Source: Candidatus Spyradenecus sp.
GTDB taxonomy: Bacteria; Verrucomicrobiota; Kiritimatiellia; RFP12; DVOR01
Assembly (NCBI GenBank): GCA_045613865.1
Contig: JAZLBT010000015.1
Coordinates: 42,913-106,912 of the forward strand
Reading direction: 5' to 3'
Length of the DNA stretch: 64,000 nt
The notes below the pieces were generated by a model. The model was not told the DNA's origin. It did not search any database and worked only from the letters and a program-made list of their open reading frames with translations. Shown piece after piece: positions 3,970-58,896 of this stretch. Positions within the stretch are counted from its first letter, which is position 1, and the number at the start of each line of letters is the position of its first letter. A program made the translations under genes and the position numbers.

Positions 3970-4140
3970 ACCATTTTGTACTATTTGGGGTGACGAATAA
4001 ATTATTGCGGGCAAATACTTTATTTCGACAAACTTTCGACTGAAAAAAGTATAGTACAAACGGTATTGAAATGTACTATTACCCGACCGCAAAAAGCTAT
4101 TCCCCTAAATCATTTCTGCCGCAAAATTCATAGTACAAAA
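3970..4140. promoter_or_regulatory. Cluster of four copies of the 8-mer TGTACTAT/ATAGTACA in alternating orientation in an AT-rich intergenic region
   Basis: TGTACTAT at 3977-3984 and 4072-4079; its reverse complement ATAGTACA at 4051-4058 and 4130-4137. The cluster lies between the divergent TRL-like lipoprotein operon and folP. Confidence 0.35.
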
Positions 4141-4218
4141 TAAGTTAATTTGATATCTTAACATCTCCTCAATGCTTCAAAATCAAACCACATGAAATGG
4201 CAAATAAAACATGGCACG

Positions 4219-4305
4219 TTTGGGATTCAAACAGGGCGACTTTGCGATTCAAACAGGGCGACTTTGGGATTCAAACAGGGCGAGTTTGAGATTCAAACAG
4301 AGCGC
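4219..4305. repeat. Four tandem 22-bp direct repeats (TTTGGGATTCAAACAGGGCGAC)
   Basis: Units start at 4219, 4241, 4263 and 4285, with an exact 22-bp period. Three units are near-identical and the fourth is degenerate (TTTGAGATTCAAACAGAGCGCG). The array is about 165 bp upstream of folP. Confidence 0.85.
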
Positions 4306-4469
4306 GTTTAAAACGAGGCAGTTATAAACAACTTGTCAACAAGCAAAATCTACTTGGTTTGAGTGTCTCATTTTGTTTAATTTTTATTCTTGTATCGTTA
4401 ATACCTATTTTATATTTATTATTTTTATGTTATAATTAAGATAGTTTACGACGTTTTGGAGTTTGGTTT

Positions 4470-19170: not shown

Positions 19171-19197
19171 TTCCAATTTATTCCACTAGATTAAAAT

Positions 19198-19228
19198 AAG
19201 AAGAGCACCCCACAGGGATGCTCTTCTT
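19198..19228. terminator. Bidirectional rho-independent terminator between mnmE (+) and the NYN gene (-)
   Basis: Perfect 10-bp stem AAGAAGAGCA / TGCTCTTCTT with an 11-nt loop. It is flanked by A-runs on the 5' side and T-runs on the 3' side, so it works in both directions. Confidence 0.7.
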
Positions 19229-19246
19229 ATTTTAAAAATTAACCAC

Positions 19247-20166: not shown

Positions 20167-20410
20167 ACGTATGTTTATATAAAATGGTGCTAATTGTGCA
20201 CCATTACAAAGCACTTCATAGGGCTACTTTGATATTAATATAAAAACAAAAAAAGCGCAAAAACGCAAGCATTCTTTTTTGAAAAGAAGGAATATCACAA
20301 AAAACACTCTAAAGATGCTATTTTCTATCCCTCCAAGGCGATTTTAAGCATCTCAAACCAAGCTTTCTATCGCACTAAAACGTTATAAAAAATAGACTCG
20401 CGTTAATTTT

Positions 20411-20652: not shown

Positions 20653-20819
20653 AAAACGCAATGAAGAATACCAAAACTCCAAATAAATAGCAAGATTTTT
20701 CTTTCTTCAAAAAGAGAATTCACAAATATTTCTCTCGTTTCTCTCATACAAAACAACCTTCTTCACCCCCCGATTCTCTGCTCTTACCCTCATCAAAGAC
20801 GCGTAAAAAGTCCCTTTTT

Positions 20820-20885
20820 CAAACAGGTGCTATTTAACGAACAAACAGCACCTATTTAACGGGCAAACAGCACCTGTTTGAGACA
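20820..20885. repeat. Three tandem 22-bp repeats of the CAAACAG family (CAAACAGGTGCTATTTAACGAA / CAAACAGCACCTATTTAACGGG / CAAACAGCACCTGTTTGAGACA)
   Basis: The period is exactly 22 bp. The GGTGC core is inverted to GCACC between units 1 and 2. Unit 3 forms the imperfect palindrome CAAACAGCACCTGTTTG. Confidence 0.8.
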
Positions 20886-20980
20886 CAAAGCAATACGGTT
20901 TCATTTAGAGAATAAAGCTCCCTTTTATAACGCATAGGGTTCACTCACTTAAAACATCTCTTCACATAGGGTGTAGAAAT

Positions 20981-33182: not shown

Positions 33183-33183
33183 A

Positions 33184-34272: not shown

Positions 34273-34486
34273 AAACGGTCCTCTCATACTTAACTATATT
34301 ATATGTCAAAAAACAGTCAAAAGCAACTGTTAATCAATGTGTCAAAAAAAATATTTCAAAAATGCGCTTAAAGTGCCTTTTTTATGCATCTTCTTTTTTA
34401 AAAAGATTTCTTAAATAAAAAATTAACTCTTTTTTTTCAATTTTCGCGTACTTTCTCCATCTTATCCCCCCTACTCTTCTTAACAA

Positions 34487-39827: not shown

Positions 39828-40073
39828 GAAACATTCTCTCCTGATTTTAGGGCGCAATGCACCTTCGCATAATATTGCCCGCGTACCATTATAACAAAAA
39901 ATATCACACTCTTCTAAAAAAGTCAAGTATTTTAAAGAACTTTTATTTTTCCACCTCCTTTTCCTATGCAAAGCAAAAGCATCACATACGCTTAAACAAT
40001 TTCTTGACTTTGGGGATTCAAATCCTCTACAATAAGTGAAGTTCTAACAATTTAATCATTAAGGTCTACGATA

Positions 40074-46600: not shown

Positions 46601-49600
46601 GTTGTCGAGATTGTCGGGAAGGTGAGGAATTCTTCCTTGATCTGAAGCATATCACCCAAGCGGTTAGCAGAATTCTCTAAATAACCCGGCTTGATATAAC
46701 CAAGAGGACCAAAGTAAAGATTTCCATCTTCACGCCAAAGGCCACCATTGTAACCACGATAAGCCATCCGGACTTGAGCCTGCAAGAGCGGACACGTCGT
46801 CTCTGCAATGGTTGTTGCATAGTTGCCTGCACCACCATTACCAACACGTGCAACCGTCGGTGCATCAGGTTCTGTACCCGTCTGCTCCTTCACCCATGCA
46901 CGAATGTTATCAACCGAGCGATACGTATCTTCAGCACGCTTGAGTGCGTCCTTGTACTTCGCAACAATCTGATCACGACGTGCAGCCCAAATCTTTTGGC
47001 CTTCTTCAAAGGTCTTGATAAAGGCATAACCATTCACCTTTTGATCAATTGCCTTAAGGCTTGTGATCATGTCATTGTCATCGCTAAAGAATTCATCGAC
47101 CTTATGAATTGCCGTTACAGCCATCCAATAATCCTCATCCGAAGGATCAATAAAGGCCAAACGGTCAATTGCAGCCAAATACGTTGCAGTTTCCTTAACC
47201 TTCGTTGCATACTCCATCATGACACTATCATGAGAGACGCCAGGAATTGTTGTAATATCCACAGGATTACGTTCTGCAGAGCCCTGCGTCAAGAGACCCT
47301 TGCGAGCATCAATTTGCGACTCCGTGGGAAGCGCAATCGTACGAGCAAAGAGATAATTCACCAAACGCAATGCAGCATCTTCTTCACCATCTGCAGATGC
47401 ACGTGCAACCTTAATCGGATTGACTTCTGTATCCATCACATAATCCAAAGAGATCATCATGTCTGGATTCATCAAATCTTCATAAACGTTATAAGTGTCA
47501 GGGAAGGACTTCCAAATTACACCATACGTCCGCTTACCATCCATATCGATTTCAGAGACCCACTGTGCAACACCCTTCGCATTATCAAGCGACTTCGTGT
47601 AAAGACGAGAGACACTCGGAGAAAGGTCATAGCGGAAGTGACGGAAGGCACTTGTCATGTATTCCTGATAGTTCGTAAGACCATCATGATCAACGTCAAT
47701 ATCAACATCACCTTCATAGGTCGGGTCGATATTTTCAGGAATAGCAACCACTTCTGTCTCTGCTTCAGGGTCTTCACCCTCTACATTTTCTTCGTCTTCA
47801 GTAGTATCTTCTGCAACCTGCGGTGCGGTACCCCAGTAGAATTCATAACCATCCGACATACCATCACAGTCGGTATCCATTGAGCAGGGGTTCAAACCGC
47901 GACCTTCCCAGATCGATTTACGTGTACCATCTGCCGTGTAGATAAAGGTTGCCGAACCTTCCTGACCATCTTCAATACCATCAAAGTCGGTATCACTATT
48001 ATTCGGATCGGTCGGATAAAGTTTGTTCGTCCAACCAGGATTCGACAATCCACCGAGATCAGGATAGGAGTAAACCGATGCCTGACAAATAAACTCATCC
48101 TTTGTTGTAAGACCGTCTTCGTCAGTATCTTGTTCTCGTGCAGTTGCTGCAGGACCCGTAGGATCAAGATCCACATAGAGCGACCAACCATCTGGGATGC
48201 CATCGCCATTCGTATCCATGCTAACAGGAGACAACTGATTTACGAGCGGAAGAAGACGTGCGGTATTGTATTCTTCCATATTCGTGAAGGCGGTTGTATT
48301 TTCCGAGGTGTATTGGAAACGTGCATCACCAATCATGCCGCCCGATGCGGAAACAGCCCATGCTGTATACGGCGAGAAGCCAACCGTCGTGTAGACGTCA
48401 TGGTGCTTCAAGATGACCGCTTCGTTCGTTTCCATCTGATAGGACTTATCCGTCACAATGTTGGTGAGATTAATCTTTTCAGTCTCATCATCCAAATCAT
48501 CCCATGCAAAGGTTGTCTTGGAGAAACGTTCCAACGTTACAACTTCACCCTCTTCCAACGGATTTGCTGTGCCGTTCGCGGGCAAGGTGAAACGAATTTC
48601 CTTCGTTGCAGCATCATAGTAAGCACAGCACTTCACGAGCTGAATCGGCATACCATCTGCATCATACGTATTCACATAATAACGTGCATCTGCGGGAGCT
48701 GCCGTACCATTGAATTCCACTTCATAGAGATCGTGCACCACGCCAAACTTCTTCACTTCCAAACGTGCATAGAAGTCATTATCAGGGTTTTCATTTGCAT
48801 CGTCAAGGAAGGGATTCACGTAAGGAATACCATTATCATCGGCACCCCAGCCAGCTTCCCAACCATCGGGCATCCAGTCATTATCCGTATCGCAGTCGAG
48901 CGGATTGGTACCCAATGCAAGTTCTTCAATCGTGTTGTAACCGTCATTATCAGGGTCACCAGCAATACCACCATAGATATCGTTAGCTGTGATAACATCC
49001 CAGTAATTACCCATTGCAGACTTGTGGTTCGGGCGTGCATTTGCAGCAGGCGAACCAACTTCTGCATCAGGATTATAATCATTACGCAAACGACGACCCA
49101 TCACAAAACGGTTCGGCATGCCAAAGTGATTACCAACACCACCACGACGCTTGCCATTCATATTGATCTTAGCAACACTGGTTGTATCCATCGACTCAAG
49201 GTCACGAATATCGATTGCCGGCCAAATTGAAGTATTGATTTGCGTATAAGTTACGTCATCAGAGGTATCTTCAACCGTTTCCTTCTCATCCGTCCACTGG
49301 AAGGCGGAAGCAAAACGCATACGCGATGCATAGTACCAGAAGTAGTACTTCACACCATTAACGATATCACCACCATTGGTTTCACCGCCGAAACGATCCA
49401 ACCAACACGTCTGAAGCGGATCCCACGCATTTGTAAAGTACTCATCAAGGACAATACCCGCGGGCACCAACCAGTCATGGAAGGCAAACATTTCTGTTGT
49501 TGCATATGTCTTCGTGTCAACCTTCACCGTTGCATCTGCACCATTTTCGTCTACATATTCTTGCGTGTAAACAGGAGCGAGATACATCTTCTGCTTATAA

Positions 49601-52600
49601 GCCTTGATGTCAGCCGTCGTCTTGGTGCAATAGAGCAAACCATTGTCACCAATTTCGAAGACAAAGTCTGTCGAAGCAGGTTCCATGTCCGTAACAAGCT
49701 GAAGGATAACATCCTTTACAGTGATGCCCGTAGCCTTAATGAGTGCATCCATCTGCTCTGCGTAATCCTCTGCGGTCTTATCAAGCGCTTCAATATCTGC
49801 CATCGAGAGGGCGGCGAGCTTGCCTTCGCCAACCTTAATCGGCGTGGCGGTCGAATGCATCTCAACCTGATCATTGATACCAATGTAATTAGGTTGTGCA
49901 AGTTCGTAGCAAAGGAAACGTTCACCTTGAGGAATCGTTTCGTAAATTACAGCATCCTTTACCGTCGGAGCATCTGGATCAAAGAGCGGAATCCATGCAC
50001 GCTTTGCATTGCCCGCTTCATCTACCATCGGAATATGAACCATTGTATCAACAGTCTTTTCCTCTGCCGATGGAGTCGCTGAGTCAAACGATGTCGTCAA
50101 GAAAACCTGACACATATTGGGAATTTTTATTTCCTCAATTGCAACAGTCGTAACCAAATTGCCTTCGCTATCTGTCATCTGTGCATAGGTATCAACCGGC
50201 TTTTTCTTCGTTGTGACAGGGTCTGTGGTGCTGTCAGTGACATACTCAATCTCAACTGTTCCCGTCTTCACCCAAACAGGATAAGACTCGCCCGCCTTCA
50301 CGGTCTTCGATGTTTCTGTTTCAGCAACACCATCCAAGTCAGGATCAAGCTGACGCATCATTGCTTCCGTCTTCACCGCGGAGATAAGCATCATCTTACC
50401 GCCTAATTCACGAATGTCGAGATGTTTAAGCGTACCTGCCTGCTTGGCATCATCCTTACCCGGCATTTCATCAGACGAGGTGAAAGGATAGACAAGATTT
50501 GCCCCCGTTGCTTCATCGTAAACAGGAATGAAGTGTCGAACCTTCCGCGTTGCCGTATAGAGACCCGTCTCTTCCGACACAGAGGTCTTATCAACAAAGG
50601 TCTCTTCTGCATTGTAAGCCCACGTAACCTTTTGGTTACCATGATAGTCTAGCGCATAATTGTAAAGGTCAACAATTTGTTCGTAGTCTACACTATCCTT
50701 ATCCGTACAAACGAGCACCATGTGACCTTCTGGGCGACCATGAAGATGATTCCATCCTAAGGGGAAACCACGAACCTTCGATTCGTCATTACCATCGCCA
50801 AGCACCCAACGCCAACCAGCCTCATGCCATTCCTGAGGAATATTCCACCATTGGGGTTCATCTGGATTATTGATGTGTTTGCTTACGAAATCTGTTTTTT
50901 CTTCATTGAGATAGGGAATTTGATGACGTTCTGTACGAGCGACACGAATACCCGTGTCTTCCCAATCGGCAATCGTATCTTCAACCTTACGATAAACGAT
51001 TTCAGAGCCCATGTAAAGCTTGTGCTTTTCAAGCTGAGAAGGAACGAAAGAACCATCATTACGAAGCGTACCAGCATTAATAAAGGTTTCTTTATCATGT
51101 CCGTTAGGAGCAGTCTTTTCTGTATAAGCCCCACCAAAACTATCCAACTTTGCCTGCGTCACAGCAGGACGAAGCGCAACAACCCATGCAGGAGCAGAGA
51201 GCCAATTACCATGACCATCACCAGCATTCAATGCATCATCACGACCACGAATACGCTGCTTATAGGTGAACTGTTCACCTGTAACCGAGCAAGGTCCTTG
51301 AGGATTATTACGCGTCCAATGAATGGGCAACGAAAGGTTAACCGTATCATTGGCACCAGCATTATCAAGCGTATTGTTTACAAAGTTAGCGGCATAAACA
51401 GTATCACCGCCATTCCAACCTGCGAAAGGAAGACGATCACCTTCAGCAACCGTTGCTGCAACATTGGTTTCGACAAGTTCACGACCATTGGTGAAGTTTG
51501 CAATCAACCAACCATCGGGAACGCCGTCCATATTGTAGTCGCCGAGATCAAAGAGACCATTACGATCGCTCGTCTCCATCGAGTAAGCGCGCAAAGCATC
51601 GCCTTCGTCATATTCAAGCGTAAAGATTGCAGAGAGCACAATATCTGCCCATGTTTCCGATTCCTTCGGATCAACTTCTGCATCACCAGGCGCAAACATA
51701 CGATTAATTTGCAAGGTAGGCGAATAGATCGACTGCAAGGGGTCGGTCGACTCAAGTGGAAGCAAGCCAATGTAATCTTCCGATGCTGCCCACTTGTAGA
51801 AGAAGGAGTCCTTCGTCGGATTTACACCGATAAAGGAGTCAAACTTCTTACCCGCATGGGTCTTCTTGTTTGTACCTGCAGAAAAAGGAATTGCAACAAC
51901 CGCTGCGGTTGTACCCGTACCACGACCTAAGGTTGCGGATGTTGCCGTGCGGGTAAAGGTCCACTTCGACTGGCCACCTTCAGCAACTGTACCATTCTTC
52001 GCAACGTCTTCAGCCCACGCAATGAAACCAGAAGCCGACATTGCACCATAGGTGTTATAAACATTAAACGTGAACTTCTGTGCAGAAGAGATATCAACAA
52101 GGCCCGAAGGACGATTTTCGGAAGCAACATAGGCACCCGACGAGTCATAGGCCGTCATGCTCCAGTTGTGTTGACCAGCTGCATCGTAGGAATAAGTAAA
52201 GGCAACTTGCGATTCATAGCCTTCGCGTTCAATGCGGCAAGCTCCACCCTTTGCGAAGGAACCGACGGCGTCGGCTTTTTCACCATAATACTTCTTTTCG
52301 AGTTCGCGAACCTTATCATTCCACTTGGCTTCGCCCATTTGCTGAATCATATCTTCATCATTTGCAATCAAACGATATTCACGAGCATCAGCGACAGCTT
52401 CATCGAAATTCATTTCAACAACGATATAATCGGTCTTTGCATCTGCGATGGAGAAGGCAAAGGGAATCGTTGCACCAACAGAAGAAGTTTGTGCTGCGGT
52501 TGCACCCGTCACAAACGGAGCACGGTTAGCAATTGTCGGCGCTGCAATCGGAGAGCAAATATCTGCATTGCCAGTGATACGACCCGTTGCGGTACCAGCG

Positions 52601-54675
52601 CGAACAGCAAAGAGCGGCATCTTGATGGCAACATCGGTAGCATCATAGGTACCAAGTTTATTATCCTTCTTATAAACGGGAGCATTGAGAAGCTTGCTTG
52701 CAAAATCGTTCAATGCAGCAACATAGAAAGACTTTGCCGTTTCACCAGGGGCAAAGGTCATCACAAGGCGCAAGGGATCCGTTGCAAGGTTACTTACACC
52801 CGAACCCGTCGACTGTACCTGAAGCATCGTCTTCAAGAGATCAACTACAGGCGTATAAATCGTCTCGATTATAGCATCATTCTCATCGCGGATCTCTTCC
52901 TTATAATAGTAGTCTTCCGTAATTTCCGTTGTGCCATTAGAGAAGACGGGGTGCACAACGAAGTAGCGTTTCGCCGTCGAAACGGACTCAACACTTGCAG
53001 TATACGTTGCAATCGAGAGCGCGGTCGTTGCGTCGCCCGCCATCGCAGGACGATATTCCTGCAAATAGTCACCTGTTTCGGCAACGCTAATGGTGATATT
53101 CTCAACCTTCGTCGAAGACATCACAACGATGTACATCGGCGTATCTTGATCGTTGCTAAGACCGGGGATATGAACACGATAGAGCGCCTGGCCCGACTTC
53201 GCATTCGTCTTTGCCGTGAACTTAATCGATTCCAAGTCACCCGTTGCATTATATAAAGGAACAACATACTTGTCAGGAGAGACATTCGCATTCGATTGAG
53301 AAATCTGCTCAACGATTGCATAGAGCGTACCTGCGCCACTCAAACGATCAATATTATTCTTATCGATTTCCACCGTTGCGGTAGAACCTGCAGGCACAGA
53401 AACGAAGACAACATTGCCATCGCCTTCTTTAAATGTTGCAGGCGTTGTGACATCGTCCGAGCCACCCTGAATAAAATCAGCCAAAAGGTCTGCATCTGCA
53501 AACGTTGCGGTATCCTTATTGGGAATGTCAAGCGTTGTTGCTGTATAGCCCGAAGTTGCCGTATTGTTCACAACAGGCGAATCCAACAAGTCAAATTCTG
53601 CAGCAGCATAAACGTGCGAGTAAGTGGCATTCGTTGAGGGCATACCATAGCAGATACGCACAGGAGCCGATGTAGTAACACCCTGCGGAATGCTTACATA
53701 AAACGTCTGTGCAACAAAAGGTGCAGTGGTGCTATGACCATCCACAGAGGCGGCATACTTGCTATAACCATCTGCATCCTTTGCAACAAGTGCGGTATTA
53801 TCTGCATCAGCACCTGCAATATACGATGTTGCGTCGCGGTAAACGCTAATCTTTGCAGGGATCAAATTGCCATTTGCATCCTCCACCCAGAGCTTGCAAC
53901 CTGCAGCAACCGAAGCAGACGTGAACGCAGCAGGAATTTGATCAACATAATCAGCTGGCATTGCCACAGTAACAGGCACAAGACCCTTGTAAAGCTTGCC
54001 GGCATCGCCCACGGTAATTGCGAAGCCGTTCACTGCACAAGAAGCACCCGCTGTCACAGAAGAGCCGTCAAACGCATCCCTGTCAAGCGAGAGCTGTGTC
54101 ATTGTTGTGCCCGTAGAGGCACGTTCCTGTACCGACAACTTAATATTTTCAACCGTGCCGGACAAACGTAACGAACCATCCGCATTGCGTGCAAGGTCAA
54201 TATCGTCAACCATATCACCCGGACGCACCACATAAGCGAAGCGAAGCGTACCAGCAGCAGTCGAATCCACATAGTAAGCAACAGCCGAAGACGTCTGAGC
54301 GGGCACATCAACGTCTGCCTTGTAGCCCTGAGGATTACCATCAACCGTTGCAACCGAAGAGAGACCCTTCAATGGAATGTTCAACAACAATGCGGGGCGT
54401 GTACCAGCCTTTGCCGTATCGGCATGTTCATAGCTCGCCTTACCTAACGTTGTCGTCACTGTTGTGCTCGTTACTGTCGACTTCAACTTCACATCGAAGT
54501 AAACAATATCGCCAACAGCAAGGGTTGTCGCATCTGGACCACCACTATTACTCTCAGCGAACGAACGAGACACGCTCTCTACAGTAAGATCCGCAGAACT
54601 TACTGCATATGCATTTGTGCTCCAAAATGCGGTTACCGCTACCGCAGAAGCAATCAACATGTGTTTCATTTTCAT
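40687..54675 (-). CDS. Giant secreted protein 2 (about 4,662 aa from the ATG at 54675). It has a scattered array of Ca-binding DxDxDG (thrombospondin-type-3-like) motifs and a LamG/ConA-like domain.
   Basis: Signal peptide MKMKHMLIASAVAVTAFWSTNAYA. At least 14 D.D.DG..(D/N)..E motifs (for example DTDNDWMPDGWE, DTDCDGMSDGYE, DTDGDGIADGTE, DVDVDGDKLADAWE) lie between residues ~1910 and 4470. A LamG-like jelly roll ending in YMDEVRIWNGARTETEIAQ spans residues ~2960-3190, about nt 45120..45810. The ORF track starts at a GTG at 54687; the ATG at 54675 has GGAG 11 nt upstream. Confidence 0.85.
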   Translation of the reverse strand: MKMKHMLIASAVAVTAFWSTNAYAVSSADLTVESVSRSFAESNSGGPDATTLAVGDIVYFDVKLKSTVTSTTVTTTLGKASYEHADTAKAGTRPALLLNIPLKGLSSVATVDGNPQGYKADVDVPAQTSSAVAYYVDSTAAGTLRFAYVVRPGDMVDDIDLARNADGSLRLSGTVENIKLSVQERASTGTTMTQLSLDRDAFDGSSVTAGASCAVNGFAITVGDAGKLYKGLVPVTVAMPADYVDQIPAAFTSASVAAGCKLWVEDANGNLIPAKISVYRDATSYIAGADADNTALVAKDADGYSKYAASVDGHSTTAPFVAQTFYVSIPQGVTTSAPVRICYGMPSTNATYSHVYAAAEFDLLDSPVVNNTATSGYTATTLDIPNKDTATFADADLLADFIQGGSDDVTTPATFKEGDGNVVFVSVPAGSTATVEIDKNNIDRLSGAGTLYAIVEQISQSNANVSPDKYVVPLYNATGDLESIKFTAKTNAKSGQALYRVHIPGLSNDQDTPMYIVVMSSTKVENITISVAETGDYLQEYRPAMAGDATTALSIATYTASVESVSTAKRYFVVHPVFSNGTTEITEDYYYKEEIRDENDAIIETIYTPVVDLLKTMLQVQSTGSGVSNLATDPLRLVMTFAPGETAKSFYVAALNDFASKLLNAPVYKKDNKLGTYDATDVAIKMPLFAVRAGTATGRITGNADICSPIAAPTIANRAPFVTGATAAQTSSVGATIPFAFSIADAKTDYIVVEMNFDEAVADAREYRLIANDEDMIQQMGEAKWNDKVRELEKKYYGEKADAVGSFAKGGACRIEREGYESQVAFTYSYDAAGQHNWSMTAYDSSGAYVASENRPSGLVDISSAQKFTFNVYNTYGAMSASGFIAWAEDVAKNGTVAEGGQSKWTFTRTATSATLGRGTGTTAAVVAIPFSAGTNKKTHAGKKFDSFIGVNPTKDSFFYKWAASEDYIGLLPLESTDPLQSIYSPTLQINRMFAPGDAEVDPKESETWADIVLSAIFTLEYDEGDALRAYSMETSDRNGLFDLGDYNMDGVPDGWLIANFTNGRELVETNVAATVAEGDRLPFAGWNGGDTVYAANFVNNTLDNAGANDTVNLSLPIHWTRNNPQGPCSVTGEQFTYKQRIRGRDDALNAGDGHGNWLSAPAWVVALRPAVTQAKLDSFGGAYTEKTAPNGHDKETFINAGTLRNDGSFVPSQLEKHKLYMGSEIVYRKVEDTIADWEDTGIRVARTERHQIPYLNEEKTDFVSKHINNPDEPQWWNIPQEWHEAGWRWVLGDGNDESKVRGFPLGWNHLHGRPEGHMVLVCTDKDSVDYEQIVDLYNYALDYHGNQKVTWAYNAEETFVDKTSVSEETGLYTATRKVRHFIPVYDEATGANLVYPFTSSDEMPGKDDAKQAGTLKHLDIRELGGKMMLISAVKTEAMMRQLDPDLDGVAETETSKTVKAGESYPVWVKTGTVEIEYVTDSTTDPVTTKKKPVDTYAQMTDSEGNLVTTVAIEEIKIPNMCQVFLTTSFDSATPSAEEKTVDTMVHIPMVDEAGNAKRAWIPLFDPDAPTVKDAVIYETIPQGERFLCYELAQPNYIGINDQVEMHSTATPIKVGEGKLAALSMADIEALDKTAEDYAEQMDALIKATGITVKDVILQLVTDMEPASTDFVFEIGDNGLLYCTKTTADIKAYKQKMYLAPVYTQEYVDENGADATVKVDTKTYATTEMFAFHDWLVPAGIVLDEYFTNAWDPLQTCWLDRFGGETNGGDIVNGVKYYFWYYASRMRFASAFQWTDEKETVEDTSDDVTYTQINTSIWPAIDIRDLESMDTTSVAKINMNGKRRGGVGNHFGMPNRFVMGRRLRNDYNPDAEVGSPAANARPNHKSAMGNYWDVITANDIYGGIAGDPDNDGYNTIEELALGTNPLDCDTDNDWMPDGWEAGWGADDNGIPYVNPFLDDANENPDNDFYARLEVKKFGVVHDLYEVEFNGTAAPADARYYVNTYDADGMPIQLVKCCAYYDAATKEIRFTLPANGTANPLEEGEVVTLERFSKTTFAWDDLDDETEKINLTNIVTDKSYQMETNEAVILKHHDVYTTVGFSPYTAWAVSASGGMIGDARFQYTSENTTAFTNMEEYNTARLLPLVNQLSPVSMDTNGDGIPDGWSLYVDLDPTGPAATAREQDTDEDGLTTKDEFICQASVYSYPDLGGLSNPGWTNKLYPTDPNNSDTDFDGIEDGQEGSATFIYTADGTRKSIWEGRGLNPCSMDTDCDGMSDGYEFYWGTAPQVAEDTTEDEENVEGEDPEAETEVVAIPENIDPTYEGDVDIDVDHDGLTNYQEYMTSAFRHFRYDLSPSVSRLYTKSLDNAKGVAQWVSEIDMDGKRTYGVIWKSFPDTYNVYEDLMNPDMMISLDYVMDTEVNPIKVARASADGEEDAALRLVNYLFARTIALPTESQIDARKGLLTQGSAERNPVDITTIPGVSHDSVMMEYATKVKETATYLAAIDRLAFIDPSDEDYWMAVTAIHKVDEFFSDDNDMITSLKAIDQKVNGYAFIKTFEEGQKIWAARRDQIVAKYKDALKRAEDTYRSVDNIRAWVKEQTGTEPDAPTVARVGNGGAGNYATTIAETTCPLLQAQVRMAYRGYNGGLWREDGNLYFGPLGYIKPGYLENSANRLGDMLQIKEEFLTFPTISTTNNDAKRSKVPLFATSPISSDSDLDGMDDYWEIVHGLNPLLGDYREEVKDNATGRHIDMLQAAYLASNYKKTDISATYNPVMKNAIIGDFATQATGFDYYSYPWFTGVPFADPDGDGLVNSDEAPNGEDAAVHHGTDPSPLWMTDPSNMNSFTLRFYGNNLAGLTDENGLNVKEYFTSYPGFIVKYPDASRQAVEDMPFYPFEVNEGFDTDGDGIADGTEVSTPYAYYNGDPQDPFSPTRNFAAYFGGEGAMQTPALIDFGPTALRRFTVECWILPDDVQNETDVVLVDRPWSFSTNSLSTQHLRHNFILGLEVKGDKLYPYACFTATGGSVDGGTSVPAMSARAVSKTPIGKEVKQDNGSVTIDPNAEWTHVAATYDGNSLRIYVNGKETNSVLSSLLPATGVVVNSYDGDWRYYNVYQAPFILGATPTNNWIADTSDYLSKEEEANVVGINTFGEVFTKCYKGYMDEVRIWNGARTETEIAQDSKRTLTKDELLTYRLTSMIDRLNNGDVEEYLHEDGEGIYENTLTTYPVAVYTFNNLPSSTEEDADNVYEVYPGQKLIGDETIPGSFTYRRSSYVGDEKPQATDLFCSYYDINTPDYLKSTKYGEERTARVPMVDAFGDKVYNPTTGKPIATTTTKKFYEYVPKAINLVSRLPIFDIEVLDKEGNPRLHKMETSVLEPINPKMSALPELGQYRMWDTCFWRKNKAGDTVDATVFLKVNANPYAYRYEIFPTYDQDKQTVQEPFTVIRDTDLMVYGDAFTKYSAICWEPEGSFSSPDQKEAPTEGTEGTPEWFLHNKDGVDTGDKMNDIQLSVGGQILETEVRKGATRDTDGDKMPDWWETYYGLDYEDPIGKNGPYYDNDGDFLTNYAEYLANSNPGLYSTAGNDIPDFHVPLYYRRGAPVMGLLYSDADFMEDHWEATFKSSNPSVDSFDMYADPDHDGWSNFAEARVSTRGVHSTNPLVDVEQTINGKVAAYPTPALSIRVDCFEDLDSILNSGNNDEGENVAMSAKVVVHAFTVKGNMSAPDAIFVLPFGEAAEGDNAEGLTQIIGRMNYGTTTGYLEPGNIKAGSVEVKTSYYQEIGEDGTLNGYTDGEGVTIRDDGNGLLKGFFKTEVVSVDETTGEPVLDEDGKPVLKAVWSERAIGTINYITGEYSYTISEKDYITDELYNDEGKFVAYFKDIYLKAAYEMSPVESFPATYTFSQPLEGGHIREGKNNFFVFLDLNGNNMWNEGEPAGVPDQHDVDIGYDTINRELHVALTKNAPPGAVRVEMKTILDTFIAEKKAAEAMENNGTGDAEGEDDNNQAAEQEASLESKIKNPLTGDNLKWSNFLGEVGEEMTENFKIIFYDWETISNTIHSGATATLTRAYEQDYNTAKPYITEDEIFAANPTGLSVALSPNVTAMKYLVCYAPVAKLADPEYVARTYGIATAINNFGRFSVEQTHLRDPESANPNGGKIITNTDLAFEWASTTQLPSFDVKIVKTMDAAGIALAKEQTVFEKTAIRGVSAIARSNESSSKFYYRYEMPNAIGDLNSDATALFGNGSYKYVLTLHPYTGTPVELVGYFQVQLTDSRDLVDGIGTVETYKGSDGKYTAGAKDTTFNALNSYYVRANIRYNGVLNTDDDFSQGLVRIEAHYSASFNGTPVASTSDYLNYDGTNPALDNLNHTVIMEKDKTYVDGNEEIFHSTLIRAELRGLASDEPVYLVAYFDLNMNGKRDTWEPWGYLAKGATSSDNFYYDPMLVTPKRSGTSIDATFYIQDVDVDGDKLADAWEWIQSGRPSTLFADWCNTVVGGANAYTKAGVLWTEAGLTSLGAQVFGFNVLSVNNDGIVDVGIPAEAYQNTMSNFGSIMPAANWLELAAKGYTDYSVAIKSVVFDGNNVALQWSVEASKTEATGTTETITEEDITDIIAKTNAVYNFYGKETLSDEWTLINAIEVSLADGQVLKGASVKLNETAPKFFKVVLEVKTK

Positions 54676-54714
54676 ACCGTGTACCACTCCATTTCAAGGG
54701 GGTTTTTTATAAAA

Positions 54715-55371
54715 TTACTGAGCAACCGCCTGTGTTGCTGTTTGAGAATCCTGTTTTTGAGCATCTGCACGTGTCGGGAGCCCCGCTTCCTTCACCTGCG
54801 TCTCAACCGTCGAAAGCATTTGATCATAATCATTTTGAGCCGCATGCGTCTGCTGTTTAATACGCTGATAAACGCGACCCGTTGCCTTGCGGCTTGCCTC
54901 TTCTGCTTCAGCTACGGCCTTTAACAACGACTGATAATGTGCGTGCTGAGCAAGCTTTTCATTAATCAACGTCTGGCTCACCTTCATGCCACGAGCCTCG
55001 ACCGCAGCCGTCCAATTCTTAACCAATAATGCACGATAATCATCGGCAGCTTTTTTTGCAACAGCATAGGCATCGGCCGCCTGTGCTCGCTCATTTCCCA
55101 ACTGTTTCAAGTCAGCTTTGTAAGCCTCATCCTTAACACGCTCATCGCCCGTTGTCAAAGCGGGACGACCATTTGGATACTTCGCGTCTAAATCTGCGTA
55201 ATATTTTTCACGCGCGACAAGCCCATCTGCGCTCGTCGTCGTGGAGTCTTTTTGTGTCTCTGCCTCTGGAGGCGAATTATCGCCGCACCCCTGTAAAATC
55301 AGGCTTCCAAAGACAAATAGTAAACACGCGATGCCTCTCGACAGCACGTGTAGCTGACGCCTATAAAACAT
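54715..55371 (-). CDS. Lipoprotein with an Ala/Lys/Glu/Gln-rich, coiled-coil-like C-terminal half; first gene of the giant-2 operon
   Basis: Signal peptide + lipobox LILQGCGD. The downstream half is predicted helical (KADLKQLGNERAQAADAYAVAKKAADDYRALL...). There is a 39-nt gap to the giant gene start on the same strand. Confidence 0.6.
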   Translation of the reverse strand: MFYRRQLHVLSRGIACLLFVFGSLILQGCGDNSPPEAETQKDSTTTSADGLVAREKYYADLDAKYPNGRPALTTGDERVKDEAYKADLKQLGNERAQAADAYAVAKKAADDYRALLVKNWTAAVEARGMKVSQTLINEKLAQHAHYQSLLKAVAEAEEASRKATGRVYQRIKQQTHAAQNDYDQMLSTVETQVKEAGLPTRADAQKQDSQTATQAVAQ

Positions 55372-55750
55372 TTTTAGACCTCTTCTCTAATTCAATCATA
55401 CGGGAATAAACTATCACATCTACCCCAAATACGCAAGCATTCTTTTGAAGAAAGAGAAAAAATACACCCACCTTTTACTAACCTATAATAGAGAGCATTT
55501 TCCATCCCCTCCCACCCCCACTCTAACCACCTCTCAACACCCCTCAAAATTCCTCCTTTTTTCACTCGATTTTCGTTCTGGAAAATGATTTCCCTGCCCC
55601 CCATCCCATCATTCCCCAACAAAATTCCCAATCAAATTTCTCATTTAAAAGTGTCGCACACGTCTTCAATCTCCAATCGCCTACACCCCACGCAACGTTT
55701 CACCAACCTTTGTTATACCTGTTGATAAGCTGTGCATAACCCACGATTTT

Positions 55751-55838
55751 GAAACCGCACCTGTTTGAAGCTCAAACGTGCCGCAATTGAAGCTCAAACA
55801 GGTGCGGTTTAAGCTTCAAATAGCACCTGTTTCAAATT
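55751..55838. repeat. Four tandem 22-bp repeats of the CAAACAG family, with an embedded 17-bp perfect inverted repeat
   Basis: Units: GAAACCGCACCTGTTTGAAGCT / CAAACGTGCCGCAATTGAAGCT / CAAACAGGTGCGGTTTAAGCTT / CAAATAGCACCTGTTTCAAATT. AAACCGCACCTGTTTGA (55752-55768) is the exact reverse complement of TCAAACAGGTGCGGTTT (55794-55810). Confidence 0.8.
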
Positions 55839-56612
55839 GACATTCATAACCATTAAAATCACCCCTTTTCCTTCTTTAAATTACGCCCCCTATAATTCCA
55901 CTCTTTGCCCCCTACCCCTCCTAATCCTTCACACATCACTTCTATTTTATAACGCACGACAACACACCCACCTTAATCATCTGCAAAGAGAAAAATCGCA
56001 CTTTAACAAACCTCACGCAAATACAACAAGAACAATCGTCTTAAAATCTTTCTACTTTGACATCCACTTCGTTTAAACACCCCGTAATTTTATCAATTTA
56101 AAATAATTTCCTTCTTCGTAGTTAAATATCTCCCCCTCTCCATCGCTAGAAACAAAACTCAAATCGCATCCCATCACCATAAAGCGATTCCACCATTATC
56201 CAATACCATAAACAGACGTCTTCCCACGAATAAATGACATTCTCGAAAATTTCATCTCTTCAATATGCATTTACAATAACTTCTTTTGAACATTTTATGG
56301 TTGGCAATTTTAAGCTTAAAATCAGTACAATCTGTACTATCTGTGTAAAATTTAAATAGTACGATTTTTCGCCGGGGTCTTTTAGACCTATTTAGAAAAT
56401 TCTAGAAAATCGTACGATGGGCCGAAGAAATGAAATCGAAAAGGAACAGCTGCTTTAGACGGGCCTATCGACTAGCACAAAGTCAAACGCTCAAATCACA
56501 CAACCGCATAAAGCATGTATATCAACGTTTGAAATTCTTAACAACACGACAAATATACATCTATACTTCGACTACGTAGCAACTTCACAATCTTCCACGA
56601 GGCACATCTACT

Positions 56613-56646
56613 TTACAAAAAAACGCCCCACGAATGTGAGGCGTTT
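56613..56646 (-). terminator. Rho-independent terminator after fusA (minus strand)
   Basis: On the minus strand: AAACGCCUC ... GGGGCGUUU, a 9-bp stem with one G-U pair, followed by UUUUUUGUAAAG, 24 nt after the stop. Confidence 0.65.
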
Positions 56647-56669
56647 CTTCATTGTTCGTTTTCGAAGGA

Positions 56670-58775
56670 TTAGTCTTCGGAATCGGAGTAACCGTGGACC
56701 TTACCTGCCTTACGACGCTTTTCAACGATTTCGTCTTGGAGGTTTTTCGGTACGGGTTCGTAGTGGTCGAACACCATGGTGAAGGAGCCACGACCCTGAG
56801 TGAGGGTACGGATGGTGTTGGAGTAACCGAACATTTCACCGAGGGGAACGAAGCCGTGGACGAGACGTGCGCCACCGCGTTCTTCCATACCTTCAACACG
56901 ACCACGACGCTGAGAGAGCGAGCCGGTTGCTGCACCCATGTAATCTTCGGGAACAACGACCTCGACCTTCATGATCGGTTCGAGGAGCTGAGGCTGGCTC
57001 TTGAGGAAGACTTCCTTGAAGCACTGACGAGCAGCGGTCTGGAAGGCGAATTCCGAAGAGTCGACATCGTGGTAAGAACCGTAGAAGAGGGTTGCCTTGA
57101 GCGGGAGCACAGGATAGCCTGCGAGCGGGCCGGATTCCATTGCTGCACGAGTACCCTTTTCGACTGCGGGGATGTATTCGCCAGGGATAACACCGCCCTT
57201 GATGTCGTTGATGAATTCGAATTCCTTGCCATCTTCCTGCGGAGCGAACTTCATGCAGACATGGCCATACTGACCACGACCACCAGACTGCTTCTTGTGC
57301 TTGTATTCGCCTTCGCCTTCGACAGCGATGGATTCGCGGTAAGCAACTTCGGGGCGACCGACTTCGCATTCAACGTTGAATTCGCGCTTCAAGCGGTCAA
57401 CGATGATTTCGAGGTGAAGTTCACCCATACCCGAAATGATGGTTTCGGAGGTTTCCTGGTCGAATGCGACGGTGAAGGTGGGGTCTTCCTGAGCGAGGGT
57501 GTGGAGCGCGTTACCGAGCTTTTCATTGTCCTGGCGAGAGACGGGCTTCACTGCAATCGAGATAACCGGTGCGGGGAAGTCGATGGATTCGAGGTGAATC
57601 GGGTTTTCGATGTCGCAGAGGGTATCGCCGGTGCGGGTGTTGGGAAGGCCGATAACAGCAACGATGTCACCAGCATAAGCTTCTTCGAGCTTTTCTTGGT
57701 GGTTAGCGTGCATACGGAAGAGGCGGGAGATACGAGCCTTCTTGTTGATGGAAGAGTCGAGGATTTCTTCGCCAGCGCGGAGGGTACCGGAGTAAACGCG
57801 GGTGAAGATGATCTTACCCATGTTCTTATCAGCCATGATCTTGAATGCGAGAGCGGAGAGGGGCTCATCGTCCTTAGCATGACGAACGATGGTTTCATCT
57901 GCTTCGTCAACGACCGGCGGAATATCGAGCGGGCTGGGGAGGTAAGAAACGACTGCGTCGAGAAGGATCTGGATACCCTTGTTCTTAAATGCAGTACCGC
58001 AGAAAGCAGGCATGATCGAACGGGAGATACAACCCTTACGGATACCCTTGATGATTTCTTCCTTGGAGAGGGTGCCTTCTTCAAAGAACTTGTTCATGAG
58101 GTCTTCGTCTTGTTCAGCAGCAGCTTCGATCATTTCCTGACGCATTTCAGCGCACTTGTCAGCGAGTTCTGCGGGGATTTCAGAGTAGATCTGCTTAACA
58201 CCGTTGGAAGCCTTATCGAAGGTGACGAGGCGTTCTTCGAGCAAGTCAACAACGCCTTCGAAGGTTTCACCAGCGCCGAGAGGGCAAACCATCGGAACGG
58301 GGCGAGCCTTGAGCTGTTCGCGAGCCTGGTCCATCACGGAGAAGAAGTTTGCACCAACGCGGTCCATCTTGTTCACGAAGATGAGCTTCGGTACTTTGTA
58401 CTTTTCGGACTGACGCCACACCTGTTCGGACTGGGGCTGAACGCCACCAACTGCGCAGAACACTGCAACAGCGCCGTCGAGAACGCGGAGGGAGCGTTCC
58501 ACTTCAGCGGTGAAGTCCACGTGGCCGGGGGTGTCGATGAGGGAGATCATGTAGTCGCCCCACATAACAGCCGTTGCTGCGGAGGTAATCGTGATACCGC
58601 GTTCTTGTTCCTGGACCATCCAGTCCATCGTTGCGCCACCATCGTGCACTTCGCCGATCTTGTGGTTCTTACCAGAATAGAAAAGAATACGTTCAGACGT
58701 CGTGGTTTTACCAGCGTCAATGTGCGCCATAATACCGATGTTACGGACCTTGGCCAAGGGGATTTTGCGTGCCAT
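56670..58775 (-). CDS. fusA: Translation elongation factor G
   Basis: [36 protein letters not shown] and NKMDR, followed by the full five-domain EF-G architecture (701 aa). No rpsL/rpsG genes lie upstream and no tuf gene lies downstream. Confidence 0.95.
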
Positions 58776-58896
58776 ATCTGACTCCTAATAGTACGGGATG
58801 CAAATAAAAAAGATAGTGCAATATATCACAAACCTTGATGAAAAATCAAGCATTTATTTTATTCTTTTAAAAAAAGTCCTTGATGTATCAAAAGAA

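What the first reader, a model, noticed from the sequence alone, without database searches (positions are those of the whole stretch)
55751..55838. The repeat array upstream of the giant-2 operon contains a perfect 17-bp inverted repeat able to form a long hairpin or cruciform
AAACCGCACCTGTTTGA (55752-55768) and TCAAACAGGTGCGGTTT (55794-55810) are exact reverse complements separated by 25 nt. They are embedded in the 22-bp repeat array, about 380-460 bp upstream of the lipoprotein/giant-2 operon start. A 17-bp perfect palindrome arm is well beyond chance in 64 kb. It could be a strong operator for a dimeric regulator, a transcription attenuator in the leader RNA, or a recombination site.
Basis: seen in the sequence. 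Interest (0 to 1): 0.55.

Follow-up and report, generated by a model that had tools for sequence, protein, structure and literature searches.

The report
Inverted copies within a dispersed 22-bp repeat
The perfect 17-bp inverted repeat is real, but it is simply two oppositely oriented copies of a small palindromic 22-bp unit that occurs as short tandem arrays in at least three intergenic regions of this Kiritimatiellia genome, so it is a REP-like dispersed repeat and not a control element specific to the giant-gene operon.

Summary
Confirmed: AAACCGCACCTGTTTGA (55752-55768) and its exact reverse complement (55794-55810) exist. They can fold into a ~23-bp hairpin and are far beyond chance.

They are units 1 and 3 of a four-unit, exactly 22-bp-periodic array (55750-55837). 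Each unit is itself a near-palindrome (TCAAACAG-N3-CTGTTTGA), and unit 3 is unit 1 flipped.

The same unit family forms two more arrays in the window. One lies upstream of folP (4205-4314). One lies between the giant-1 terminator and a tRNA pair (20819-20906), and it also has one flipped unit.

Metagenomic contigs carry arrays with the same arms, the same 22-bp spacing, variable linkers and flipped centres. These sit in tandem, divergent and convergent intergenic regions. Other Kiritimatiellia have analogous 22-23-bp arrays built from entirely different palindromes. More distant folP orthologous loci lack any array.

Array C lies about 350-437 bp upstream of a conserved promoter-like block, so a leader attenuator is unlikely.

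Best reading (about 0.5): a lineage-specific REP/BIME-like dispersed array of palindromic units, in which the inverted repeat is a by-product of unit inversion. Main rival (about 0.25): a phased operator or upstream-activating array for a dimeric DNA-binding protein. Interest is moderate to low for the finding as stated. The repeat family is a new variant of a known kind.

The parts
55750..55837 (.). Array C: four tandem 22-bp units. C1 is 55750-55771, C2 is 55772-55793 (divergent), C3 is 55794-55815 (C1 flipped) and C4 is 55816-55837. Each unit is approximately TCAAAC-N7-GTTTGA.
   Evidence: A second strain (L119) keeps the array with one substitution.
55752..55768 (+). Left arm of the perfect 17-bp inverted repeat. 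It is the core of unit C1.
55794..55810 (+). Right arm of the perfect 17-bp inverted repeat. It is the core of unit C3, which is unit C1 in the opposite orientation. The reverse complement of the C3 19-mer differs from C1 at one base.
4205..4314 (.). Array A: five 22-bp units of the same family (TCAAACAGGGCGAsTTTG + GAT linker), all in one orientation. It sits in the divergent intergenic region upstream of the folP-cdaA-cdaR operon.
20819..20906 (.). Array B: three to four 22-bp units (CAAACAG-GTG/CAC-CTrTTTr). Unit 1 is flipped relative to units 2-3, giving a 17-nt inverted repeat at 94% complementarity. It lies between the giant-1 terminator and the tRNA-Gly/tRNA-Val genes.
55408..55444 (-). 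Probable promoter of the lipoprotein/giant-2 operon: the box AAGAATGCTTGCGT, containing a -35-like TTGCGT (55431-55436), a 17-nt spacer, and a -10-like TAGTTT (55408-55413). It is not part of the repeat and is listed because it fixes the array's position relative to transcription.
   Evidence: The exact 14-mer recurs at 20263-20276. The block is conserved in the 56%-identical orthologous locus L120. Its function as a promoter is inferred.
54715..55371 (-). Lipoprotein gene, first gene of the giant-2 operon (giant-2 is 40687-54687, - strand). This is the nearest gene on the left of array C.
56620..56650 (-). Terminator-like hairpin with a T-run after EF-G (56670-58775, - strand). It separates EF-G transcription from the 1.3-kb intergenic region that holds array C.
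   Evidence: Read from the sequence. EF-G is identified. The promoter/terminator scan of this region did not list it.

Best explanation
The 17-bp inverted repeat is a by-product of a lineage-specific, dispersed intergenic repeat. The repeat consists of short tandem arrays (3-5 copies, exactly 22 bp apart) of a small near-palindromic unit, TCAAACAG-N3-CTGTTTGA plus a 3-5-nt linker.

Shown:
- The two arms are units 1 and 3 of array C in opposite orientation.
- The same unit family forms three arrays in 64 kb, beside functionally unrelated genes.
- Flipped units also occur in array B and in related metagenomic arrays.

Inferred:
- A founder palindrome is seeded in an intergenic region and then amplified locally by slippage or unequal exchange. 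This would explain why linkers are alike within an array but differ between arrays.
- Individual units are occasionally inverted because their arms (CAAAC/GTTTG) are themselves inverted repeats. Inversion could occur by hairpin-mediated template switching, or by insertion in either orientation.
- This behaviour resembles REP/BIME clusters of enterobacteria: palindromic, species-specific, extragenic, of mixed orientation, and probably bound by a host protein on one face of the helix, since 22 bp is two helical turns.

On this reading the array is not a dedicated switch of the giant-2 operon. Any effect on that operon would be indirect, through upstream nucleoprotein or DNA structure, roughly 350-437 bp from the probable promoter.
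For: - Three arrays, 13 units, exact 22-bp register, and no isolated doublets elsewhere in the window. Shuffles give 0.5 doublets.
- Unit logo: positions TCAAACAG..C...TTTGA are conserved across arrays and linkers are not.
- C3 is the reverse complement of C1, and B1 is flipped relative to B2/B3.
- Metagenome contigs (L162, L163, L175, L178, L189, L190, L191, L219, L249) have arrays with the same arms (CAAACAG-SSS-CTGTTTG) and exact 22-bp spacing. Core identity is 0.80-0.95 against linker identity 0.13-0.60. Centres are flipped (CCC/GGG), often in a terminal unit.
- Their contexts include convergent gene ends (L163 twice, L236), tandem genes and divergent genes.
- In a wider sample of 22-bp AAAC..TTT arrays from genomes, 116 of 124 lie outside ORFs. 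Of those with both flanks defined, 25 are convergent, 19 divergent and 33 tandem.
- The feature is lineage-specific. Orthologous folP loci at 52-55% amino-acid identity have no array, and about 125 kb from EF-G-related Kiritimatiellia have none of this unit.
- Those relatives do carry analogous 22-23-bp arrays of other palindromes. L255 has GACCACTATAGTGGTC in two inverted copies. L261 has CCTCACTGAGG with a flipped last unit.
- No ORF, no Rfam family and no plasmid match covers the element.
Against: - The defining REP features are absent or untested. There is no GTAG/CGTC head, and no RAYT or other transposase gene in the window.
- Genome-wide copy number is unknown, because only 64 kb could be examined.
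- Units are shorter (17-19 bp) than typical REPs.
- Exact two-helical-turn phasing, and conservation of the arms while linkers drift, would equally fit selection for protein binding, which is the rival reading.
- Four arrays (A, B, and those in L255 and L261) end about 130-160 bp upstream of sigma-70-like promoters picked by eye. Two of these promoters drive tRNA operons. This hints at an upstream-element role.
- The wide genome contigs sample is heterogeneous and was selected by my own search pattern.
Confidence: 0.5

Rival explanations
1. Phased operator or upstream-activating array. Each palindromic unit binds a dimer of a helix-turn-helix-type protein. Units spaced two helical turns apart place the dimers on one face of the DNA and allow cooperative oligomerisation. 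The resulting nucleoprotein complex modulates the neighbouring promoters (folP operon, tRNA-Gly/Val, lipoprotein/giant-2). The 17-bp inverted repeat is incidental, because a symmetric site works in either orientation.
For: - Units are dyad-symmetric with 7-bp arms.
- The 22-bp phasing is exact in all arrays.
- Arms are conserved between arrays while linkers differ. In the metagenomic subfamily, cores are 80-95% identical and linkers 13-60%.
- Array A ends about 130 bp upstream of the probable folP -10 (TATAAT 4432-4437, read).
- Array B ends about 160 bp upstream of a by-eye tRNA promoter (TTGCTA-N17-TATTCT, read).
- The L261 array ends about 156 bp upstream of a predicted tRNA promoter.
- The L255 array ends about 132 bp upstream of a by-eye TTGCAA-N18-TATTCT promoter.
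Against: - The neighbouring genes are functionally unrelated.
- No single or degenerate sites occur anywhere else in 64 kb.
- The asymmetric 3-nt centre is conserved (CAC/GTG here, CCC/GGG in the metagenomic set) although its orientation is random. This points to copying of a module, not independent selection of half-sites.
- Related arrays sit between convergent gene ends.
- Orthologous folP loci in relatives have no array.
- The unit sequence is entirely different in sister genera.
- Array C is about 350 bp or more from its conserved promoter block.
- No regulator gene is adjacent.
- All but one of the promoters are by-eye calls.
Confidence: 0.25
2. Site of small DNA inversions or site-specific recombination. 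The flipped units would reflect an active invertase or recombinase acting on the CAAAC/GTTTG arms, giving switchable orientation upstream of a variable surface-protein operon.
For: - Whole-unit flips occur in arrays B and C and in many metagenomic arrays.
- The lipoprotein/giant-2 genes are a variable locus. Identity to strain L119 drops from 98-100% to about 83% from roughly 200 bp inside the lipoprotein coding sequence onward.
Against: - There is no recombinase or invertase gene in the window.
- The second strain (L119) has the same unit orientations.
- The inverted segment is only about 9-13 bp and carries no promoter.
- Array A shows no flips.
- Flips are equally well explained by rare hairpin-mediated template switching.
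Confidence: 0.06
3. Leader-RNA hairpin or attenuator, or mRNA-stabilising structure. The array would be transcribed as part of a long 5' UTR of the lipoprotein/giant-2 operon, and the 23-bp hairpin would control read-through or stability.
For: - The predicted hairpin is strong on both strands.
- The 800 bp upstream of the lipoprotein are 98-100% identical between two strains although the coding sequence diverges.
Against: - A promoter-like block conserved across a 56%-identical orthologue lies 37-73 bp upstream of the ATG.
- No U-tract follows the stem.
- No promoter-like site was found on the - strand upstream of the array.
- There is no Rfam match.
- Arrays A and B are not in leaders.
- The region upstream of the promoter block is not conserved in L120.
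Confidence: 0.04
4. Iteron-type replication origin or partition site, based on 22-bp tandem repeats with a neighbouring DnaA box.
For: - The 22-bp tandem repeats at helical phasing resemble plasmid iterons.
- A DnaA-box match, TTATGCACA, lies at 55731-55739, about 11 bp from the array.
- A family of IMG/VR contigs pairs TTATCCACA with CAAAC-N7-GTTTG doublets.
Against: - DnaA boxes are not enriched: 4 found against 2.7 expected.
- There are three arrays in 64 kb.
- There is no rep, par or dnaA gene nearby.
- Cumulative GC skew declines almost steadily across the window, with no sustained reversal at the array; the only rise (57-59 kb) coincides with the EF-G gene.
- There is no plasmid similarity.
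Confidence: 0.03

Closest known systems
REP / BIME / REPIN elements (repetitive extragenic palindromes of Enterobacteria and Pseudomonas; background in PMC2817692, PMC3116915, PMC3733652)
   Same: Both are short imperfect palindromes confined to extragenic DNA, with species-specific sequence, clustered at regular spacing, and with units in both orientations. Adjacent inverted units give long hairpins, as in REPINs. They are found next to unrelated genes, including between convergent genes in the related metagenomic arrays.
   Different: The units here are shorter (17-19 bp). They are mostly in direct orientation, not strictly alternating. The 22-bp period is exact. There is no GTAG/CGTC head. 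No RAYT gene was seen in the DNA available. Genome-wide copy number is unknown.
BrickBuilt minisatellite/MITE of Porphyromonas gingivalis (Klein et al. 2015, PMC4596501)
   Same: Both are spacer-less tandem arrays of a ~22-23-nt unit, always intergenic, dispersed at many loci, species-restricted, and predicted to form stem-loops.
   Different: The BrickBuilt unit (AGAYCATARTATCCTCTCRTRTG) is unrelated in sequence and is not a dyad-symmetric AAAC..GTTT unit. BrickBuilt has leader and tail segments with terminal inverted repeats matching IS elements. No such flanks are evident around arrays A, B or C.
Tandem palindromic operator arrays (for example ARG boxes for ArgR, and phased sites for activators upstream of stable-RNA promoters)
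   Same: Both have dyad-symmetric ~18-bp units repeated at about two helical turns. Several arrays lie 130-240 bp upstream of probable promoters, including tRNA promoters.
   Different: Known operator arrays have 2-3 sites, are conserved at orthologous promoters, and define a regulon. Here the arrays have 3-5 units, are absent from orthologous loci in relatives, flank unrelated genes, and have no lone sites.
Plasmid iterons (17-22-bp Rep-binding direct repeats)
   Same: Both have a 22-bp period, 3-5 tandem copies and helical phasing.
   Different: There is no rep gene and there are multiple chromosomal loci. The units here are palindromic and are sometimes inverted.

Membership tests
REP/BIME (RAYT-associated repetitive extragenic palindromes) | Imperfect palindromic unit of about 20-40 nt able to form a stem-loop | tested here: inconclusive
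   Units are near-palindromes of 17-19 nt with 5-7-bp arms. This is shorter than classical REPs.
REP/BIME (RAYT-associated repetitive extragenic palindromes) | Extragenic, dispersed, many copies per genome | tested here: inconclusive
   There are three arrays and 13 units in 64 kb, all intergenic. The rest of the genome could not be retrieved.
REP/BIME (RAYT-associated repetitive extragenic palindromes) | Conserved GTAG or CGTC tetranucleotide at one end of the palindrome (PMC3733652) | tested here: not met
   No GTAG or CGTC occurs in the unit consensus TCAAACAG..C...TTTGA.
REP/BIME (RAYT-associated repetitive extragenic palindromes) | Cognate RAYT (Y1 transposase) gene flanked by the repeats | tested here: not met
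   No transposase domain was found in the 26 window ORFs scanned against Pfam. The two giant ORFs were scanned against NCBIfam only. This covers only this 64-kb window; the genome as a whole is not testable.
REP/BIME (RAYT-associated repetitive extragenic palindromes) | Clusters with units in alternating orientation at regular spacing | tested here: inconclusive
   Spacing is regular (22 bp). Orientation is mixed and not strictly alternating: A is all direct, B has one flipped unit, and in C units C1 and C4 share one orientation, C3 is flipped and C2 is too divergent to orient.
Iteron-type replication origin | Tandem 17-22-bp direct repeats next to a rep gene, an AT-rich unwinding element and DnaA boxes, at one locus per replicon | tested here: not met
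   The repeats are present, but there is no rep gene. There are three loci. DnaA boxes are not enriched.
Transcription-factor operator array (regulon) | Sites conserved upstream of orthologous genes in related genomes | tested here: not met
   folP loci L131-L134 have no array. The lipoprotein locus L120 shows no similarity beyond the promoter block within the 309 bp available. Only the 99%-identical strain L119 keeps the array.
Transcription-factor operator array (regulon) | A cognate DNA-binding protein that recognises the unit | not testable with these tools
   No candidate is encoded next to any array. Testing this needs pull-down or EMSA.
Intrinsic terminator / attenuator | GC-rich hairpin followed by a U-tract, located in a transcribed leader | tested here: not met
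   No T-run follows the stem. The terminator scan does not call it. The element lies about 350 bp upstream of the conserved promoter block.
BrickBuilt MITE | 23-nt repeat with the published consensus, plus leader and tail with IS-like terminal inverted repeats | tested here: not met
   The published consensus AGAYCATARTATCCTCTCRTRTG is unrelated to this unit. I saw no shared flanks around arrays A, B and C on reading.
CRISPR array | Direct repeats separated by unique spacers of similar length | tested here: not met
   Units abut with 3-5-nt linkers and there are no spacers.

The most novel reading that the evidence does not exclude
Kiritimatiellia, and possibly other gut and rumen lineages, carry a previously undescribed class of intergenic element. 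It consists of arrays of 3-5 small palindromes held at exactly two helical turns (22-23 bp). The palindrome sequence is replaced wholesale between genera: TCAAACAG..CTGTTTGA here, GACCACTATAGTGGTC in L255 and CCTCACTGAGG in L261. The architecture, the occasional unit inversion and a position about 130-240 bp upstream of strong promoters (tRNA operons, surface-protein genes) are retained. This would imply either a rapidly co-evolving architectural DNA-binding protein, or a new RAYT-independent way of propagating palindromic units in phase.
Probability: 0.15. Interest if true: 0.6.

Novelty: new variant of a known kind. Interest (0 to 1): 0.35.

Why it matters
For the window itself, the result removes a tempting but probably wrong annotation, namely a dedicated operator or attenuator of the giant-2 operon. 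It replaces it with a repeat-family annotation covering three loci.

More generally, it documents species-specific, exactly phased arrays of palindromic units in Kiritimatiellia, a little-studied PVC class. Look-alikes occur in metagenomes. Such elements can break assemblies: two related contigs end in the same repeat at the corresponding positions. They can create spurious 'regulatory palindromes'. They may serve as strain markers or as protein-binding platforms.

If the phased-platform reading were true, it would point to an unknown architectural DNA-binding system upstream of tRNA and surface-protein promoters.

Tried and rejected
- Rfam. The gathering search on the window and on nine loci, and the E-value search on 55300-56700, found only tRNAs and chance hits.
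- oriC or iteron idea. One DnaA box lies next to the array, but boxes are not enriched and there is no sustained GC-skew reversal.
- Plasmid similarity. None was found.
- BrickBuilt homology. The published unit is unrelated.
- Literature searches for 22-bp palindromic arrays in Bacteroidales or Kiritimatiellia found nothing specific. One 2026 preprint that might be relevant could not be opened.
- Retrieval of the source genome by exact protein look-up failed. A JGI contig carrying the identical TRL protein stops about 107 bp short of array A.
- The closest orthologous contigs (L120, L130) end 309 and 183 bp upstream of the genes. Conservation at intermediate distance therefore could not be read.
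I therefore use them only for architecture and context, not for taxonomic enrichment.
- Small ORFs in the intergenic region look like noise.
- I found no convincing sigma-70 promoter within 130-160 bp of array C on either strand, either by the scan or by eye.
- Intrinsic curvature from phased A/T tracts was rejected as the shared principle, because the analogous arrays in L255 and L261 lack A-tracts.

Full report
**Observation**

The window sequence contains AAACCGCACCTGTTTGA at 55752-55768 and its exact reverse complement at 55794-55810, with 25 nt between them. With mismatches allowed, the arms extend to 24 nt at 88% complementarity with 11 nt between.

In the whole window only four inverted repeats of 15 nt or more (exact 12-nt seed, arms within 200 nt) were found. 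Two of them lie in arrays of the repeat family described below. The 17-mer with up to 3 mismatches has 6 matches against 0.23 expected.

As single strands the region folds into a ~23-bp stem:
- RNA, - strand: -36.3 kcal/mol, z = -3.6.
- RNA, + strand: -36.9 kcal/mol, z = -5.9.
- DNA: -23.4 kcal/mol, z = -4.8.

**Anatomy**

The arms are not a free-standing palindrome. Printed in a 22-nt register, 55750-55837 reads:
- C1: TGAAACCGCACCTGTTTGAAGC
- C2: TCAAACGTGCCGCAATTGAAGC
- C3: TCAAACAGGTGCGGTTTAAGCT
- C4: TCAAATAGCACCTGTTTCAAAT

Each unit is itself a near-palindrome, best seen in array B as CAAACAG-CAC-CTGTTTG. The AAAC and GTTT blocks alternate every 11 bp. The reverse complement of the C3 19-mer differs from C1 at a single base. 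The 'perfect 17-bp inverted repeat' is therefore unit 1 and unit 3 of the array in opposite orientation, and C4 has the C1 orientation again.

**The element is not unique to this locus**

A search for TCAAAC-N7-GTTTGA with up to 2 mismatches gives 14 hits against 5.5 expected. Twelve of them fall in three clusters with exact 22-bp spacing:
- Array A: 4205-4314, five units, all in direct orientation.
- Array B: 20819-20906, three to four units. Unit 1 is flipped, giving a 17-nt inverted repeat at 94% complementarity.
- Array C: the finding.

Doublets of the AAAC-N8-TTT frame at 22 bp occur only in these three places, and block shuffles give 0.5. Across the 13 units the conserved positions are TCAAACAG..C...TTTGA. 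Linkers are alike within an array (GAT in A, ACGxx in B, AGC in C) but differ between arrays.

**Genomic context**

EF-G homologues place the organism in the Kiritimatiellia, in the PVC group.

- Array A lies in the divergent region upstream of folP-cdaA-cdaR. It ends about 130 bp upstream of a TATAAT at 4432-4437.
- Array B lies after the giant-1 terminator and about 160-240 bp upstream of tRNA-Gly/tRNA-Val.
- Array C lies in a 1.3-kb ORF-free region between the EF-G terminator and the lipoprotein/giant-2 operon.

The 26 window ORFs scanned against Pfam are housekeeping or cell-envelope genes or have no family match. None shows a transposase or recombinase domain, and no DNA-binding regulator gene lies next to an array. 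The two giant ORFs were scanned against NCBIfam only and matched nothing.

A promoter-like block (AAGAATGCTTGCGT, then a 17-nt spacer, then TAGTTT; 55408-55444, - strand) is conserved in the orthologous locus of a relative whose lipoprotein is only 56% identical. The exact 14-mer recurs upstream of the NYN-domain gene. Upstream of that block the two loci are unrelated. Array C therefore lies about 350-437 bp upstream of the probable transcription start. This is an inference, because no transcript data exist. The hairpin is not followed by a T-run, and no promoter-like site was found upstream of it on the sense strand. Rfam gives nothing.

**Conservation**

- A Logan contig (L119) is 98-100% identical over the 800 bp upstream of the lipoprotein. 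It keeps all four units with one substitution. It is too close to be informative about selection.
- Contigs from a more distant relative end 309 bp upstream of the lipoprotein (L120) and 183 bp upstream of folP (L130). Both end in the same 56-bp sequence at 86% identity. Some dispersed repeat therefore sits at both positions there too, but its nature cannot be read.
- folP loci at 52-55% amino-acid identity have short, array-free upstream regions.
- About 125 kb around EF-G from related Kiritimatiellia contain no array of this unit.

**Relatives of the architecture**

Most hits are unrelated tandem repeats.

One group of contigs has arrays of CAAACAG-SSS-CTGTTTG (L162, L163, L175, L178, L189, L190, L191, L219, L236, L249; mostly GC 48-57%, L219 35%). 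These have the same arms as here and exact 22-bp spacing. Core identity is 0.80-0.95 while the 5-nt linkers are only 0.13-0.60 identical. The asymmetric centre appears as CCC or GGG, that is, as flipped units, and the flipped unit is often terminal. These arrays lie between tandem genes, divergent genes and, three times, convergent gene ends.

A broader genome scan (AAAC-N8-TTT three times) also hit its limit. It returned mainly Bacteroidales arrays with genome-specific units at many loci. One example is Prevotella conceptionensis, where arrays sit in a ~800-bp repeated element with at least 11 copies. In that heterogeneous sample 116 of 124 arrays lie outside ORFs. Among those with both neighbours defined, 25 are convergent, 19 divergent and 33 tandem. 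There is thus no bias toward promoter-containing regions.

Sister Kiritimatiellia carry the same architecture with entirely different palindromes:
- L255, L256, L259 and L260 have 23-bp arrays of GACCACTATAGTGGTC-type units between EF-G and the next gene. A second, inverted copy lies 5 kb away in L255, within intergenic regions that are mosaics of short repeats.
- L261 and L263 have a 22-bp array of CCTCACTGAGG units, with the last unit flipped. It ends about 156 bp upstream of a predicted tRNA-operon promoter.

**Interpretation**

The element has these properties:
- palindromic units;
- a strictly extragenic location next to unrelated genes;
- several arrays per 64 kb;
- lineage-specific sequence, replaced between genera;
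- absence from orthologous loci of moderately distant relatives;
- units in both orientations;
- occurrence between convergent genes in the closest architectural relatives.

Together these fit a REP/BIME-like dispersed repeat best. Linkers that are alike within an array but differ between arrays argue that arrays grow by local duplication of a seeded unit. The conserved but randomly oriented asymmetric centre argues that units are copies of a module, not independently selected half-sites. Unit inversion is expected where a short segment is bracketed by inverted arms. From general knowledge, the likely routes are hairpin-mediated template switching or insertion in either orientation. The long perfect inverted repeat is the consequence.

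Membership in the REP family proper is not claimed. The GTAG/CGTC head is absent, no RAYT gene was found in the DNA available, and copy number cannot be measured.

**The serious rival**

The main alternative is a phased binding platform for a dimeric protein. Supporting points are the exact two-turn spacing, arms conserved while linkers drift, and four arrays ending 130-160 bp upstream of probable promoters, two of which drive tRNA operons. Against it:
- the neighbouring genes are unrelated;
- there are no lone sites;
- the array is not conserved at orthologous loci;
- related arrays occur between convergent genes;
- array C is far from its promoter;
- the promoter assignments are mostly by eye.

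The two readings are not exclusive, since REPs are also bound by host proteins.

The leader attenuator, invertible switch and iteron-origin readings each fail specific tests, as set out above.

**Verdict**

The feature is a new variant of a known kind of element, a dispersed array of palindromic units. It is of moderate-to-low interest as a regulator of the giant-2 operon. It is of some interest as a clade-wide architectural repeat that deserves a genome-wide survey and a binding experiment.

Noticed in passing
window 3977-4137 and 56333-56416; also 58788-58795: The 8-mer ATAGTACR is enriched: 9 copies against 1.9 expected. Copies cluster, in both orientations, in the same long intergenic regions that hold arrays A and C. 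One copy lies just upstream of the EF-G start. This may be a second shared cis-motif.
   Followed up: partly
window 55431-55444 (-) and 20263-20276 (-); L120 240-260: The exact 14-mer AAGAATGCTTGCGT occurs upstream of both the lipoprotein gene and the NYN-domain gene. It is conserved upstream of the 56%-identical lipoprotein orthologue. With a 17-nt spacer and TAGTTT it looks like a shared promoter type.
   Followed up: partly
window 53600-55371 compared with L119 798-2515: The boundary is sharp. The 800-bp upstream region and roughly the first 200 bp of the lipoprotein gene are 95-100% identical between two strains. Identity then drops to about 83% through the rest of the lipoprotein gene and to 78-98% (mostly under 90%) in the giant-2 N-terminus. 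This suggests allelic replacement or diversifying selection at a surface-protein locus.
   Followed up: partly
window 55372-56300: Strand asymmetry is extreme. The + strand is almost G-free (GC skew -0.395 for 55001-56000). The sense strand of the giant-2 operon is therefore G-rich and C-poor, with runs such as GGGGGTGGGAGGGGATGG. No ORF or Rfam family covers it.
   Followed up: no
L120 1-59 and L130 1-57: Two Logan contigs from a related organism end 309 bp upstream of the lipoprotein and 183 bp upstream of folP. Both end in the same 56-bp sequence at 86% identity. A dispersed repeat therefore sits at the positions corresponding to arrays C and A and probably breaks the assembly.
   Followed up: partly
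L255 12160-12700, 9440-9830, 17860-17960 (also L256, L259, L260): In GC-rich Kiritimatiellia relatives the intergenic regions around EF-G are mosaics of short repeats. These include GGAAGCTT-type octamers, ATAGGACG nonamers, CAATCAGC octamers and 23-bp arrays of GACCACTATAGTGGTC palindromes present in two inverted copies.
   Followed up: partly
L261 7280-7360 (also L263 7287-7367): A 22-bp array of CCTCACTGAGG palindromes, with the last unit flipped, ends about 156 bp upstream of a predicted promoter of a tRNA-Gly/Lys operon. This mirrors the position of array B upstream of tRNA-Gly/Val in the window.
   Followed up: partly
L087 4578-5381 and ten other Prevotella conceptionensis loci: In this Prevotella the 22-bp arrays (CAAAACGCACTGCATTTAGCAC) sit inside a ~800-bp non-coding element. 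It is present in at least 11 copies at 67-78% identity. It also carries GAGTTGGT-type octamer repeats and is C-poor on one strand.
   Followed up: partly
L121-L129 (IMG/VR contigs of 70-175 kb): One family of 'viral' contigs has a perfect DnaA box, TTATCCACA, about 60 bp from a pair of ATCAAAC-N7-GTTTGAT units at 22-bp spacing. This may be a replication origin.
   Followed up: no
window 55731-55739 (-): A DnaA-box match, TTATGCACA, lies about 11 bp from array C. Boxes are not enriched in the window: 4 found against 2.7 expected.
   Followed up: yes
window 19191-19235: A 21-nt-arm inverted repeat (95% complementary, 3-nt loop) lies between the convergent trmE (17755-19170, +) and NYN-domain (19247-20128, -) genes. 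It is probably a bidirectional terminator.
   Followed up: no
window 21012-33191 (-) and 40687-54687 (-): The two giant ORFs (4059 and 4666 aa) match no NCBIfam model. Giant-1 is preceded by a prepilin-type N-terminal methylation-motif protein (33184-34287). RpoD (37458-39971) is unusually long at 837 aa.
   Followed up: no
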